Source of the DNA: Alloacidobacterium sp.
GTDB lineage: Bacteria; Acidobacteriota; Terriglobia; Terriglobales; Acidobacteriaceae
Length of the DNA: 64,000 nt
NCBI GenBank assembly: GCA_035547425.1
Contig: DASZUU010000050.1
Coordinates: forward strand, 26,645 to 90,644
Reading direction: 5' to 3'
Part shown: positions 20,750 to 23,179 of the stretch, piece by piece
Position numbering within the stretch: position 1 is the first letter of the stretch
Layout of the letters: the number at the start of each line of letters is the position of its first letter
Position numbers and translations under genes: made by a program
The notes under the pieces: model-generated
Database searches by the model: none
Seen by the model: the letters and a program-made list of their open reading frames with translations, nothing else
What the model was told of the DNA's origin: nothing

Positions 20750-20766
20750 ACAGCAGATACAAGAAA

Positions 20767-20800
20767 GCCCTGTAATCCCGATCGGATTACAGGGCCTTTT
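20767..20800. terminator. Intrinsic terminator between mtnA and the convergent cassette
   Basis: 12-bp perfect stem gccctgtaatcc/ggattacagggc followed by Ts. Confidence 0.8.
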
Positions 20801-20813
20801 GATTTTGAAGTTT

Positions 20814-21341
20814 TTAGAGGGCTTCTGCGAGTACCGGGAAGAGTAGGTACTGGTTGGTTTCGTAGAGAGCCAGCAGCCGTCGCGTCATCAGGTAATAGGA
20901 AGCAGCTGCCTGATGCACATAAAACGGAATCCGAAGCTGACCGCGGCGCAAGCGGGAATTCCAACGAACCCGGCGAATGGCGCGCTTCAGCAGAACAGAG
21001 TCATGGCGGATGCGCTCAGAAACGATAATTGCCTGATCGTAGTTCCAGTTCCGCACATATGCGGCGAGGGCGATCATCAGGTCAGCATTCTTTTCCATGC
21101 GACGCAGCCCTTCCGTGCCGCCTACGAGCCCCCAGATTTCATCTGGTTCCAGGCGAAGCTGATTCTTTTCCGGATTCAGGTGATCGAGCGCAACTAGCTC
21201 CAGACCACGCATGTGCATCGGCTCAATCGAGGTGACCAACGTTTGCCAATCTTTGGATAGCAGCTTCCGCGATCGAATTTGCGCATAGGCCAGCGCAACA
21301 ATCGCTACTACCCCAAACACACTCAGCGCAATATATCCCAT
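20814..21341 (-). CDS. Hypothetical protein with N-terminal TM anchor (cassette gene 3)
   Basis: 175 aa, hydrophobic residues ~3-20, helical basic C-terminal domain; starts 9 nt after the 7-TM gene stop. Confidence 0.8.
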   Translation of the reverse strand: MGYIALSVFGVVAIVALAYAQIRSRKLLSKDWQTLVTSIEPMHMRGLELVALDHLNPEKNQLRLEPDEIWGLVGGTEGLRRMEKNADLMIALAAYVRNWNYDQAIIVSERIRHDSVLLKRAIRRVRWNSRLRRGQLRIPFYVHQAAASYYLMTRRLLALYETNQYLLFPVLAEAL

Positions 21342-21350
21342 AGGCAGCCT

Positions 21351-22124
21351 TCAGTGCTTCTCAACCTTCTTAACGTGGCTCAATTCTGACTGCAACTGCT
21401 GATGCAGGTTATTTAGATACGCCTGCATATCAGGAGATAGTGTACGACGTTCCGGCTCCGGACGCCACAAAGAAATTATCCAATAAATGGTGACGAAAAG
21501 ATATGTGAAAGTTCGTAAATAATCGAGTGCTACACCGTGCCAACTAGCCCCAAAATGGCTATATGCTGCTTCTGCGAGTAAATCGACAGTAGACCATACC
21601 GCCCATCCTTGAGCGAGAAGCATAACGTAGCTCGTTGGAAATAAACCCAGTTGCGTCGAAACAACAAGCAGACAGGCACATAGCTCGACATTCAACATTG
21701 CCGAGAAAAGCGTTCCCTTCTCTATCCAGGAATCAAGGGAGTTGGAGAAAACAGGGTGAATAATATAGGCGATAGCAGCTGCAATCGCAGCGCCTGCTAT
21801 TCCAAACAGGATAAATCTGACTCTCGCCTCTTTAACCCAGGCACCGGCAGGTCTTAACGCTACTCTCGCCAATTCATAAACTACGCCAATTTGCAGCGCC
21901 AGATCCAGACATGATGCTGTCCAGTAAATTTGATTATATCGTGCAGCACTGCCATATTGATAAGCAATAAAAAGCAAAATCGTTCGTACAGCATTGAATC
22001 CAATGAACGATGTAAAAATCGGAAATAACCTCCACCGTCCCCTAAAAACAAGGACACATAGGAGGATCAAATGCTCCGCAAAGCCAGCCGCCCATATGAT
22101 TGATGCGGTGAGAGAAAGATTCAC
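21351..22124 (-). CDS. Hypothetical 7-TM membrane protein (cassette gene 2)
   Basis: 257 aa, seven hydrophobic segments, hydrophilic helical C-tail; AT-rich codon use. Confidence 0.85.
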   Translation of the reverse strand: MNLSLTASIIWAAGFAEHLILLCVLVFRGRWRLFPIFTSFIGFNAVRTILLFIAYQYGSAARYNQIYWTASCLDLALQIGVVYELARVALRPAGAWVKEARVRFILFGIAGAAIAAAIAYIIHPVFSNSLDSWIEKGTLFSAMLNVELCACLLVVSTQLGLFPTSYVMLLAQGWAVWSTVDLLAEAAYSHFGASWHGVALDYLRTFTYLFVTIYWIISLWRPEPERRTLSPDMQAYLNNLHQQLQSELSHVKKVEKH

Positions 22125-22177
22125 ATTACGATCTTACTCTTGAAAGTCAATCCATAAATTACAAGAATCGGAACTTG

Positions 22178-22435
22178 CTACCCGATCACTACCACTGACT
22201 GCTTCGGGCGAGGATCAGTACCGCTGATGCTGGCTACTACCACCGACTGCTTCGGGCGAGGATCAGTGCCGCTGATGCTGGCCGTCTGAGTCGTATTCTG
22301 AGGCTGAACCAGAACCATCGAAGTGGTGCTCTTCGGATGCATCTCACTATTTGGGGTCGAAGCAAAAGCCTGGTAAGAAACGGAAAAAACGAGGGTGGGC
22401 AAACCAAGGGACAGAACGCGGACCAAACGATTCAT
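22178..22435 (-). CDS. Secreted precursor peptide with two tandem 16-aa repeats (cassette gene 1)
   Basis: AAAGGAG SD, Sec-type signal ending A-F-A, then ASISGTDPRPKQSVVV x2. Confidence 0.8.
   Translation of the reverse strand: MNRLVRVLSLGLPTLVFSVSYQAFASTPNSEMHPKSTTSMVLVQPQNTTQTASISGTDPRPKQSVVVASISGTDPRPKQSVVVIG
22187..22282. repeat. Tandem repeat, 2 x 48 bp
   Basis: Units 22187-22234 and 22235-22282 match at 45/48 nt. Confidence 0.95.
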
Positions 22436-22882
22436 GACAAAATCTCCTTTAATAAAGCACTGCTCCTGACGAGCATCTGCTATAGCCTATGATGGGCGTG
22501 GAACTCCTACAAGCAATTCATGCATGTGAAATGCCAATTTTTTTTGAAGCCGAACCCTTTTATAAACAATAAGTTGTTGCACATCTGTACAAGTTTGGTT
22601 TAGACTCTACTTACATCTTTAGTAACTCATTGTGGTAACCTGTTGCTCCTAATGAAGTTATTTGAGTCATTCATTCCGGTAATATTTAGCCGGATGAAAC
22701 TTTTTTCCTATCCGGTGTTCTTGCCGACCGAACAAAAATTTTTTCTGCTCATCTGCTTTTTCAAAGCAAAATTTGCTCATCGAAGGAAGTTTCGTCCCGA
22801 TAGGCGAGAAGAAATTACGCAAGATTGGTATTTTTTCAAAGCCAAATGGACAAAATTTGTTTGTTTTGGAAGCGTTTCCCCT

Positions 22883-23179
22883 CTACTGAATCCAGCCGGC
22901 ATACGGATACAGGAGCAGAAAGAAAATCATCGCCAGCGCCATCACGTCCATATAAAGCAGCAGCAAAACCCCGCCGTGATAAAAACTCCAGCGCATCTGC
23001 AGGCAGCGGCTTGTATCGTAGGTCCCGTAAAGCGCAAGAATGGTAGGAACCAGCAGGAACGCTGAAGGCCGCGCATTCGGAAACCCGGAAAGGACAAATG
23101 CCAGAATCAGGCTGCCGAGGACTAAAATGGTTCCGCGCAACAGCGACCGCGCTCGAAAATTGAAAACTGCCGGGGGCAT
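22883..23179 (-). CDS. Small 3-TM hypothetical membrane protein
   Basis: 98 aa, strongly hydrophobic with three helices. Confidence 0.7.

What the first reader, a model, noticed from the sequence alone, without database searches (positions are those of the whole stretch)
20814..22435. Candidate peptide-signalling cassette: secreted precursor + 7-TM receptor-like protein + membrane-anchored partner
Seen: three co-oriented, tightly spaced genes with no recognisable catalytic motif, closed by a strong terminator at 20767-20800. (1) An 85-aa peptide with a strong SD, a Sec signal ending AFA, a low-complexity spacer and two identical ASISGTDPRPKQSVVV cores. (2) A 257-aa protein with seven hydrophobic segments that carry polar or charged residues (E/H, N, D/Q/E), plus a helical cytoplasmic tail. 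(3) A 175-aa protein with a single N-terminal TM and a soluble helical domain. Inference: a pheromone or quorum-type ligand-receptor-effector module with no histidine kinase, no Rgg/PlcR regulator and no RiPP maturase, so it fits none of the peptide-signalling classes I know. My recollection is that similar unannotated trios recur in Acidobacteriaceae, but I have not verified this.
Basis: partly seen in the sequence, partly recalled or inferred. Interest (0 to 1): 0.9.

Follow-up and report, generated by a model that had tools for sequence, protein, structure and literature searches.

The report
Exported repeat peptide, 7TM protein, partner
Soil Acidobacteriaceae carry an undescribed three-gene unit: an exported proline-rich peptide made in many copies, a fast-evolving seven-helix membrane protein and a conserved membrane-anchored partner, which most likely acts as a peptide-sensing device but is untested.

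Summary
g1 (22435-22178) encodes a Sec signal peptide, a spacer and two identical 16-residue cores. g2 (22124-21351) is a seven-helix membrane protein with a cytoplasmic C-terminal helix. g3 (21341-20814) has one membrane helix and a cytoplasmic helical domain. A hairpin terminator closes the unit.

None of the three matches Pfam, NCBIfam, PADLOC, PHROGs or PDB, by sequence or by fold.

The trio is conserved. g2 sits directly upstream of g3 in 32 of 32 testable related loci. A proline-rich signal-peptide gene precedes g2 in 31 of 31. The peptide is multiplied either as 2-14 in-frame cores or as 3-5 tandem small genes.

Cores within one gene stay identical in protein while their DNA has diverged (pN/pS 0.11; one gene has 73 silent and 0 replacement differences).

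g2 evolves about three times faster than g3 and the neighbouring housekeeping genes, mostly on its periplasmic side. A second, paralogous cassette lies elsewhere in the same genome.

A conserved sigma-54-type promoter motif precedes g1.

The best reading, at about 45%, is a peptide ligand, a kinase-less 7TM receptor and a cytoplasmic transducer. Binding, release of the peptide and the output are all unshown.

The parts
22619..22660 (-). Conserved upstream blocks (TAACT ... GTTACC ... GTTACTAA), candidate activator-binding sites
   Evidence: These blocks are conserved in the alignment of 7 orthologous upstream regions, which are otherwise poorly conserved. Function is inferred only.
22565..22578 (-). 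Conserved near-palindrome AACAA-N-TTGTTGTT (here AACAACTTATTGTT), about 30 nt upstream of the -24 element; IHF-like or operator-like
   Evidence: Conserved block. Genome-wide copies occur at chance level, so no regulon could be inferred.
22521..22536 (-). Sigma-54-type -24/-12 promoter motif TGGCATTTCACATGCA (GG-N10-GC), 86 nt upstream of the g1 ATG
   Evidence: This is the only match in the 64-kb window. The motif sits at the same place in 7 of 7 D-class orthologs. The genome encodes 8 sigma-54 activators, none of them adjacent.
22178..22435 (-). g1: 85-aa precursor = Sec signal peptide (res 1-25) + spacer (26-51) + two identical 16-aa cores ASISGTDPRPKQSVVV (52-67, 68-83) + IG
   Evidence: Orthologs carry 2-13 cores. 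Purifying selection on the cores is shown.
22187..22282 (-). The two 48-nt core units; they differ at 3 bases, all silent
   Evidence: Read directly (ggc/ggt, tcg/tca, gta/gtg).
21351..22124 (-). g2: 257-aa seven-helix inner-membrane protein, N-terminus out, C-terminus in, with a cytoplasmic helix 8
   Evidence: AlphaFold2 model. There is no family or fold match. The family has 1813 clusters in metagenomes.
20814..21341 (-). g3: 175-aa protein with an N-terminal membrane anchor and a cytoplasmic helical bundle; highly conserved
   Evidence: It lies directly after g2 in 32 of 32 testable loci.
20764..20798 (.). Bidirectional intrinsic-terminator hairpin between g3 and the convergent mtnA gene

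Best explanation
The three genes form a self-contained module that is specific to Acidobacteriaceae.

Proposed mechanism, step by step:
1. A sigma-54-type promoter drives g1-g2-g3.
2. g1 is exported by Sec. Its repeated 16-18-residue units each have a proline-kinked polar head (G-T/S-D-P-R-P-K) and a short hydrophobic tail.
3. The units are probably cut apart after the Ala that ends each unit. That site looks like a signal-peptidase site (V-V-A|G/S).
4. The freed peptide is the specific periplasmic ligand of g2, a stand-alone seven-helix membrane protein.
5. g2 passes the signal through its conserved cytoplasmic face (ExxR at the inner end of helix 3, WRPEP after helix 7, and helix 8) to g3, a conserved membrane-anchored cytoplasmic helical protein.
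6. g3 acts on an unidentified cytoplasmic target.

Shown:
- the gene structure, Sec signal, predicted topology and conservation of the trio;
- multiplication of the peptide and purifying selection on every core;
- duplication and co-divergence of whole cassettes;
- fast evolution of g2.

Inferred:
- cleavage between units;
- peptide-g2 binding and g2-g3 contact;
- any signalling output;
- activity of the sigma-54 promoter.
For: 1. Linkage. g2 lies directly upstream of g3 in 32 of 32 testable loci. A proline-rich signal-peptide ORF lies 30-96 nt upstream of g2 in 31 of 31. More distant family members show the same layout.
2. High peptide dosage reached in two independent ways. Some loci have 2-14 in-frame cores; others have 3-5 tandem whole genes (L037, L042, L044-L046). 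This is typical of secreted signals or products, not of stoichiometric subunits.
3. Every core is constrained. pN/pS is 0.11 overall. In L021, five units are identical in protein with 73 silent and 0 replacement differences. In L008, pS is 0.53 and pN 0.017. Cores still differ between species, so all copies track one partner.
4. g2 is the variable partner. It is 56-60% identical between species, against 80-88% for g3 and 86-90% for mtnA. Its periplasmic side is less conserved than its cytoplasmic side: 0.69 vs 0.79, p=0.006.
5. Whole cassettes duplicated. The D and G paralogs sit in the same genomes, each with its own peptide class, g2 and g3. The g2 and g3 trees agree, and peptide class needs the minimum of 7 changes on them. 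This fits insulated, specific pathways.
6. The g3 domain is cytoplasmic and the g2 cytoplasmic tail is conserved.
7. In the window's class, the signal-peptide site, the internal junctions (VVA|G, LVA|G/S, AVA|G) and the Ala C-terminus define the same unit phase.
8. Contigs from RNA libraries cross the g1/g2 and g2/g3 junctions. This evidence is weak.
Against: - There is no binding, processing or response data.
- g2 and g3 have no recognisable output domain, and no regulator is encoded at this locus. The XRE regulator seen beside distant cassettes is absent from this genome.
- Only Sec export is encoded, so the peptide may never leave the periplasm.
- The resemblance of g2 to GPCRs and rhodopsins is generic: best Foldseek E-value 0.05, TM-score at most 0.46.
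- The conservation gradient is modest. It is not significant in the G class or within the membrane helices alone.
- Peptide class following the g2 tree is also expected from simple linkage.
- In the G class the natural C-terminus does not coincide with the proposed Ala cleavage position.
Confidence: 0.45

Rival explanations
1. Peptide maturation or sorting machine. g1 is a multi-core substrate (RiPP-like). g2, with g3, is a membrane enzyme that cuts, modifies, lipidates or anchors the cores on the periplasmic side. The product is a secreted or envelope-bound natural product, not a signal sensed by the producer.
For: - Multi-core precursors and tandem precursor genes next to their processing genes are typical of RiPP loci.
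- Single-core variants end in a hydrophobic tail after a D-P-R/E-P motif (L029, L037, L039, L050). This superficially recalls C-terminal sorting signals.
- Unit junctions look like cleavage sites.
Against: - There is no match to any protease, transferase, exosortase, CPBP or radical-SAM family.
- Only P35, Y63, E84 and W215 are near-invariant across the family, and E84 lies at the cytoplasmic end of helix 3. No conserved Cys/His/Ser set faces the periplasm.
- The leader is a plain Sec signal peptide.
- g2 evolves faster than its neighbours, which is unusual for an enzyme.
- The large conserved domain of g3 is cytoplasmic, away from the peptide.
Confidence: 0.2
2. An envelope complex or periplasmic protective peptide with no signalling role. 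The peptides are abundant periplasmic or membrane-surface components, for example for stress protection. g2 and g3 would be their membrane dock or an unrelated membrane function co-expressed under sigma-54 control.
For: - Only Sec export is encoded.
- Each unit is amphipathic, with a polar head and a hydrophobic tail.
- The module is a chromosomal core feature, vertically inherited and nearly universal in one bacterial family.
- Sigma-54 promoters often serve stress and nutrient responses.
Against: - Strict identity of all cores within a gene, combined with species-specific change and a co-diverging, fast-evolving g2, points to specific recognition rather than bulk physical properties.
- Paralogous cassettes with unrelated core sequences coexist in one genome.
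Confidence: 0.2
3. A bacteriocin-like peptide with its immunity proteins. g1 is an exported antimicrobial proline-rich peptide, and g2 and g3 protect the producer.
For: - Small exported peptides in tandem copies beside a polytopic membrane protein resemble class II bacteriocin and immunity loci.
- g2 evolves fast.
- Copy number varies between close relatives.
Against: - No exporter across the outer membrane and no processing ABC transporter is present.
- The locus is syntenic with housekeeping genes and vertically inherited.
- Cores are under purifying, not diversifying, selection.
- g3 is as conserved as housekeeping proteins.
- There is no hit in defence or phage libraries.
Confidence: 0.1

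Closest known systems
Yeast alpha-factor precursor MFalpha1 with the 7TM receptor Ste2, and fungal Kex2-processed repeat proteins (PMC7329392)
   Same: - A signal peptide is followed by tandem identical peptide units in one precursor.
- Copy number varies between relatives.
- The partner is a seven-helix membrane protein with the N-terminus outside and the C-terminus inside.
   Different: - That system is eukaryotic.
- Its units are separated by dibasic Kex2 sites; here junctions are Ala-type (VVA|G).
- Ste2 couples to G proteins, and no G protein is involved here.
- There is no sequence or significant fold similarity.
- Here the ligand and receptor genes are in one operon.
Sensory rhodopsin II with its transducer HtrII
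   Same: A stand-alone prokaryotic 7TM sensor without an enzymatic domain works through a separate membrane-anchored helical partner whose main domain is cytoplasmic.
   Different: - g2 has no retinal-binding Lys in helix 7.
- The Foldseek match is generic only (TM-score 0.42-0.48).
- g3 has one membrane helix and no HAMP or methyl-accepting domain.
Gram-positive peptide quorum systems (AgrD/AgrB/AgrC/AgrA; Sec-exported Phr/Rap, SHP/Rgg, PapR/PlcR)
   Same: A small ribosomal peptide is encoded beside its membrane or cytoplasmic sensor. Phr-type peptides also use a Sec signal peptide and are cut outside the cell.
   Different: - There is no histidine kinase, AgrB-type protease, oligopeptide permease link, or RRNPP/Rgg regulator.
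- The host is diderm.
- The precursor is multi-core.
- The sensor candidate is a domain-less 7TM protein.
Multi-core RiPP precursors (cyanobactin PatE, microviridins, graspetides) and Sec-signal RiPPs (bufferins); from my own knowledge
   Same: Several identical or similar cores lie in one precursor. Bufferins also carry a Sec signal peptide.
   Different: The cassette contains no maturase (MNIO, ATP-grasp, protease, radical SAM) and no RiPP recognition element.
Related cassettes flagged earlier in this scan (e1-968460, e1-3866207, e1-5175825)
   Same: The same kind of unit was seen in other Acidobacteria: an exported proline-rich peptide (single or tandem-repeat), a seven-helix protein and a helical membrane partner.
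   Different: - Those are unpublished AI notes, not a described family.
- One of them carries an adjacent XRE regulator with operators. That regulator is absent here.
- This clade instead has a conserved sigma-54-type promoter.

Membership tests
Sec-dependent signal peptide (type I signal peptidase substrate) | Basic n-region, hydrophobic h-region of 10-15 residues, and small residues at -3/-1 (AxA) | tested here: met
   MNRLVR / VLSLGLPTLVFSV / SYQAFA|S, read. The same architecture is present in all orthologs. No dedicated predictor (SignalP) was available.
Sigma-54-dependent promoter | TGGCAC-N5-TTGCW with GG and GC exactly 10 nt apart, upstream of the gene; dependence on RpoN and an activator | tested here: inconclusive
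   The sequence motif with correct spacing is present and conserved in 7 of 7 orthologs. One such match per 64 kb is expected by chance. Activity and the cognate activator are untested; there are 8 candidate activators, none adjacent.
Agr-type peptide quorum sensing | AgrB-family membrane protease (PF04647) and a histidine-kinase receptor (HisKA/HATPase_c) | tested here: not met
   No Pfam or NCBIfam hit at E<=1 for g2 or g3.
RiPP biosynthetic cluster | A precursor with a leader recognised by a maturase or RRE encoded in the cluster | tested here: not met
   No maturase, RRE or protease domain is found in g2, g3 or their neighbours. The leader is a Sec signal peptide.
PEP-CTERM / exosortase sorting | C-terminal PEP motif, then a full membrane helix and a basic cluster, plus an exosortase (PF09721) with conserved Cys/Arg/His | tested here: not met
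   g2 has no PF09721 hit and no conserved Cys. Multi-core peptides have no membrane helix. The tails of single-core variants are 10-14 residues long and lack a basic cluster.
Microbial rhodopsin | Bac_rhodopsin fold with a retinal-binding Lys in helix 7 | tested here: not met
   There is no Pfam hit. Helix 7 (LDYLRTFTYLFVTIYWIISLW) has no Lys. Foldseek TM-scores are at most 0.48 and E-values at least 0.05.
7TMR-DISM / other bacterial 7TM receptors with fused output modules | 7TMR-DISM_7TM domain (PF07695) fused to a kinase, cyclase or phosphatase module | tested here: not met
   There is no Pfam hit. Family members are stand-alone proteins of about 230-360 aa with no fusions.
Eukaryote-type GPCR | Significant 7TM fold or sequence similarity and coupling to heterotrimeric G proteins | tested here: inconclusive
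   The topology is the same (N-terminus out, C-terminus in, helix 8). Foldseek gives only weak generic matches: probability up to 0.97 but TM-score at most 0.46 and E-value at least 0.05. No G proteins are known in the host.
CPBP/Abi-type bacteriocin immunity proteases | PF02517 with the EExxxR, FxxxH and HxxxN motifs | tested here: not met
   There is no hit, and the motifs are absent from alignment A1.
Anti-phage defence systems or phage genes | A match to PADLOC or PHROGs models | tested here: not met
   Searches found nothing at E<=0.01.

The most novel reading that the evidence does not exclude
This would be a bacterial counterpart of the eukaryotic 'polyprotein pheromone plus 7TM receptor' arrangement. 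A Sec-exported multi-copy proline-rich peptide would be read by a kinase-less, GPCR-shaped inner-membrane receptor. That receptor would signal through a dedicated membrane-anchored helical transducer. It would be a new class of bacterial peptide signalling. It is confined to, and nearly universal in, Acidobacteriaceae, with two or more insulated channels per genome.
Probability: 0.35. Interest if true: 0.9.

Novelty: categorically new. Interest (0 to 1): 0.78.

Why it matters
Acidobacteriaceae are among the most abundant soil bacteria, and almost nothing is known about how they sense or communicate. This cassette is nearly universal in the family, with 1813 sequence clusters in metagenomes, yet none of its three proteins belongs to a described family.

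If the peptide is a ligand for the 7TM protein, this would be a new kind of bacterial transmembrane signalling: no kinase, a GPCR-like topology and polyprotein ligand precursors. It would also supply orthogonal peptide and receptor pairs.

Even if the function proves different, the cores are a clean natural example of protein-level constraint on tandem repeats. They stay identical in protein while their DNA diverges to a pS of about 0.5. A cultured carrier with 12-13-core precursors, Alloacidobacterium dinghuense, makes the question directly testable.

Tried and rejected
- **The search for related loci with the diverse g2 alignment.** It failed because no conserved stretch was available. I used the g3 alignment instead.
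- **Fold and sequence searches.** Foldseek on PDB for g2 and g3 and profile searches of PDB sequences gave nothing significant. PADLOC and PHROGs also gave nothing.
- **XRE regulator.** I looked in the window's own genome for the XRE regulator that accompanies distant cassettes. It is absent.
- **Regulon search.** I searched the genome for the conserved upstream near-palindrome and for sigma-54 motifs. Hits are at chance level. A copy near a two-component sigma-54 activator on contig C29 is not distinguishable from chance.
- **Attenuator between g1 and g2.** A conserved hairpin there, as in bacteriocin operons, is not supported. Fold energies are not better than shuffles in most loci; only the paralog cassette and L038 have a strong hairpin.
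- **'Swappable specificity cassette'.** I reject it. The g2 and g3 trees are congruent, and low GC of g2 is a family-wide trait. g2 diverges in place rather than being exchanged.
- **E17/H18 as functional polar residues.** They are not conserved.
- **Expression level from public RNA runs.** Only a few low-depth contigs were found.
Full report
**1. Observation**

On the minus strand the window holds three co-oriented ORFs:
- g1, 22435..22178, 85 aa;
- g2, 22124..21351, 257 aa, with a GTG start;
- g3, 21341..20814, 175 aa.

The gaps between them are 53 and 9 nt.

g1 has a GGAG 9-12 nt before its ATG. Its signal peptide is classical: MNRLVR / VLSLGLPTLVFSV / SYQAFA|S. A 26-residue spacer follows, then two identical ASISGTDPRPKQSVVV units. 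The two 48-nt units differ at three bases, all silent.

A hairpin with a 12-15 bp stem at 20764-20798 closes the unit. It also serves the convergent mtnA gene.

The AlphaFold2 model of g2 (pLDDT 82.5, pTM 0.75) has seven membrane helices plus a C-terminal helix at residues 231-256. The basic loops (RGRWR after helix 1, KEARVR before helix 4, WRPEPERR after helix 7) place the N-terminus outside and the C-terminus inside.

The g3 model (pLDDT 84) has one N-terminal membrane helix followed by RSRK, then a helical bundle. That bundle is therefore cytoplasmic.

**2. No known family**

- Pfam and NCBIfam at E<=1 give nothing meaningful for any of the three proteins. PADLOC and PHROGs give nothing either.
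- Profiles of g2 and g3 find no PDB sequence.
- Foldseek against PDB gives no significant match. For g2 the best E-value is 0.05 and TM-scores are at most 0.46, with generic rhodopsin and GPCR bundles. For g3 the best E-value is 0.47.
- All database homologs are labelled 'hypothetical'.
- Three literature searches found no description.

**3. The trio is conserved**

A profile of g2 finds 1813 clusters (50% identity) among 1.84 billion proteins. Nearly all listed members are stand-alone proteins of about 250-260 aa.

In an even sample of 301 Acidobacteriota genomes, 24 carry the family. Of these, 21 belong to the window's own family, with 1-5 copies per genome and no fusions to other domains. 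Within the genus, 9 of 11 genomes have the ortholog, and the two that lack it are about 60% complete.

Searching species-representative genomes with the g3 alignment returned 33 loci. These come from Alloacidobacterium, Pseudacidobacterium, Silvibacterium, Terracidiphilus, strain TAA 166 and others.
- g2 lies immediately upstream of g3 in 32 of 32 loci where this can be tested.
- A signal-peptide ORF rich in proline lies 30-96 nt upstream of g2, whole or cut by a contig end, in 31 of 31 testable loci.
- Several MAG contigs actually end inside the repeat array.

More distant members of the g2 family often show the same layout. Some of these also have an XRE regulator beside them (L017, L018). 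That regulator is absent from this genome.

**4. The peptide**

Peptide multiplicity is reached in two ways:
- in-frame tandem cores, from 2 in the window up to 12 in Alloacidobacterium dinghuense;
- tandem duplication of whole small genes, 5 copies in TAA 166, Silvibacterium bohemicum and L042, and 3 in L045 and L046.

The core classes differ widely:
- G-[ST]-[DN]-P-[RE]-P;
- FGPGGG-x-P-x-PIG;
- GPGDPSPIGH;
- A-P-x-P-x-P;
- FGGNPHPQ;
- STPAPAPGP.

All share small residues followed by P-x-P, then a short hydrophobic tail.

Within a gene the units are kept identical at the protein level while the DNA has diverged. Over 19 arrays, pS is 0.31 and pN is 0.034, a ratio of 0.11. In L021, five units are identical in protein and all differ in DNA, with 73 silent and 0 replacement differences (pS 0.48). 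In L008, pS is 0.53 and pN 0.017.

Since cores differ between species, arrays must turn over, and each copy is then held by selection. In the window's class the whole 16-17-residue unit is constrained. In the G-type classes only the core is constrained and the tail varies.

**5. Unit boundaries**

This applies to the window's class and is an inference.
- In L021, L008, L025 and L022 the first unit starts right at the predicted signal-peptidase site (..HA|GITG, ..YA|GITG).
- Internal junctions are VVA|G, LVA|G/S or AVA|G.
- The ORF ends in Ala in 6 of 7 arrays. In 4 of 7 it ends at exactly the linker position that is Ala.

These junctions obey the -3/-1 rule of type I signal peptidase. This suggests that the units are released as separate 16-18-residue peptides. 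In the G class the natural C-terminus (..IG or ..NG) does not fit this phase, so the rule is not general.

**6. Evolutionary pattern**

Between the window and its orthologs:

| Protein | Identity |
|---|---|
| g2 | 56-60% |
| g3 | 80-88% |
| mtnA | 86-90% |
| upstream 98-aa protein | 78-84% |
| next CoA-transferase subunit | 84-87% |

g2 therefore evolves about three times faster than its surroundings.

Positions on the periplasmic side of g2 are less conserved than those on the cytoplasmic side: 0.69 vs 0.79, Mann-Whitney p=0.006. The trend is not significant in the paralogous class, nor within the membrane helices alone.

The same genome has a second cassette on another contig (L013 2956-4562), next to hemL. 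It has two FGPGNGIPCPIGRGG cores, a g2 that is 42% identical and its own g3.

The trees of g2 and g3 agree in every supported clade, and peptide class needs only the minimum number of changes on both. So whole cassettes were duplicated long ago and co-diverge. There is no sign that g1-g2 are swapped relative to g3. The low GC of g2 (45.6% here, against about 57-59% in the flanks) is a family-wide trait.

**7. Regulation**

The 447-nt AT-rich region upstream of g1 contains TGGCATTTCACATGCA at 22521-22536 on the minus strand, a -24/-12 sigma-54-type motif with correct spacing. It is the only match in the window. It is conserved at the same position in 7 of 7 orthologs, inside an otherwise poorly conserved region. 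A near-palindrome (22565-22578) and GTTAC-type blocks (22619-22660) are conserved alongside it.

Other cassette classes lack the motif and have different conserved upstream elements. The genome encodes eight sigma-54 activators, none near either cassette. Promoter activity is untested.

Contigs from RNA libraries, including one from a declared RNA-Seq root metatranscriptome, cross the g2/g3 and g1/g2 junctions at 100% identity. This is weak support for co-transcription, because DNA carry-over cannot be excluded.

**8. Interpretation**

The data show a self-contained module in which the exported peptide and the 7TM protein are the specific, co-diverging pair. g3 is the conserved cytoplasmic component.

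The reading that fits most observations has three parts:
- a periplasmic peptide ligand;
- a kinase-less seven-helix receptor;
- a membrane-anchored transducer.

It accounts for:
- the high and tunable peptide dosage;
- selection on every core;
- species-specific cores;
- a receptor-like topology with a variable outer face and a conserved inner face;
- paralogous insulated cassettes.

I give this reading about 45%.

The rivals are:
- a maturation or sorting machine for a multi-core product (about 20%);
- a non-signalling envelope or periplasmic peptide system (about 20%);
- a bacteriocin with immunity proteins (about 10%).

None can be excluded without experiments. Each is weakened by specific findings:
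- there is no catalytic-type conservation facing the periplasm;
- there is no outer-membrane exporter;
- selection on the cores is purifying rather than diversifying;
- the cassette shows core-genome synteny.

**9. Novelty**

No published family or system matches. The closest analogies are functional ones:
- yeast alpha-factor with Ste2, and fungal Kex2-processed repeat proteins (PMC7329392);
- sensory rhodopsin II with HtrII;
- Sec-exported Phr-type peptides.

Every membership test for a known family failed or was inconclusive.

Earlier AI notes in this scan flagged related cassettes in other Acidobacteria. They are leads, not independent evidence.
- the tallies of synteny;
- the two modes of peptide multiplication;
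- the pN/pS measurements;
- the rate contrast between g2 and g3;
- the congruent trees;
- the sigma-54 motif;
- the restriction to one bacterial family.

Noticed in passing
G000 contig C2, locus L013:2956-4562 (outside the window): The same genome holds a second, paralogous cassette: a precursor with two FGPGNGIPCPIGRGG cores, a g2 paralog (42% identical) and a g3 paralog, followed by hemL. The g1-g2 spacer there has a strong hairpin (z -3.3).
   Followed up: partly
window 22883-23179 (- strand): A 98-aa membrane protein ([13 protein letters not shown]...) has no family match. It is conserved directly upstream of the D-class cassette in every ortholog of the genus (78-84% identity). It is probably just syntenic, because the paralog cassette lacks it.
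   Followed up: partly
L019, L024, L027, L028, L031 (contig ends): Several MAG contigs end inside the g1 repeat array. These tandem repeats are assembly breakpoints, so g1 is likely to be under-annotated in public genomes.
   Followed up: no
L051:3769-4134: The g1 homolog of this long-read MAG appears frameshifted. The signal peptide is in one frame and three MPGPNPYPPASAVA repeats are in another. This is probably an indel error.
   Followed up: no
L052:1957-4132 (G175 contig C28): A distant cassette has six VPIGPVHLPPPSAMAA units followed by two tandem g2-family genes instead of g2 plus g3.
   Followed up: no
L017:2175-4980 and L018:1395-4180: Distant cassettes carry an adjacent 270-aa XRE-type HTH regulator, plus single-copy Cys/Pro-rich peptides such as TDPEPPCPTCLPGQAPPPP. 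This regulator has no homolog in the window's genome.
   Followed up: partly
window 22134-22140 and orthologs (9-10 nt upstream of the g2 start): The motif GTAAGAT (GTAATAT in some D-class orthologs) precedes the g2 start codon in most D-class and all G-class cassettes, in place of a canonical GGAGG. It may be an unusual translation-initiation element.
   Followed up: no
G000 contig C52:98829-98879: A very good sigma-54 promoter match (TGGCACAACGATTGCT) has an AACA..TGTT element 22 nt upstream. No convincing ORF lies downstream.
   Followed up: no
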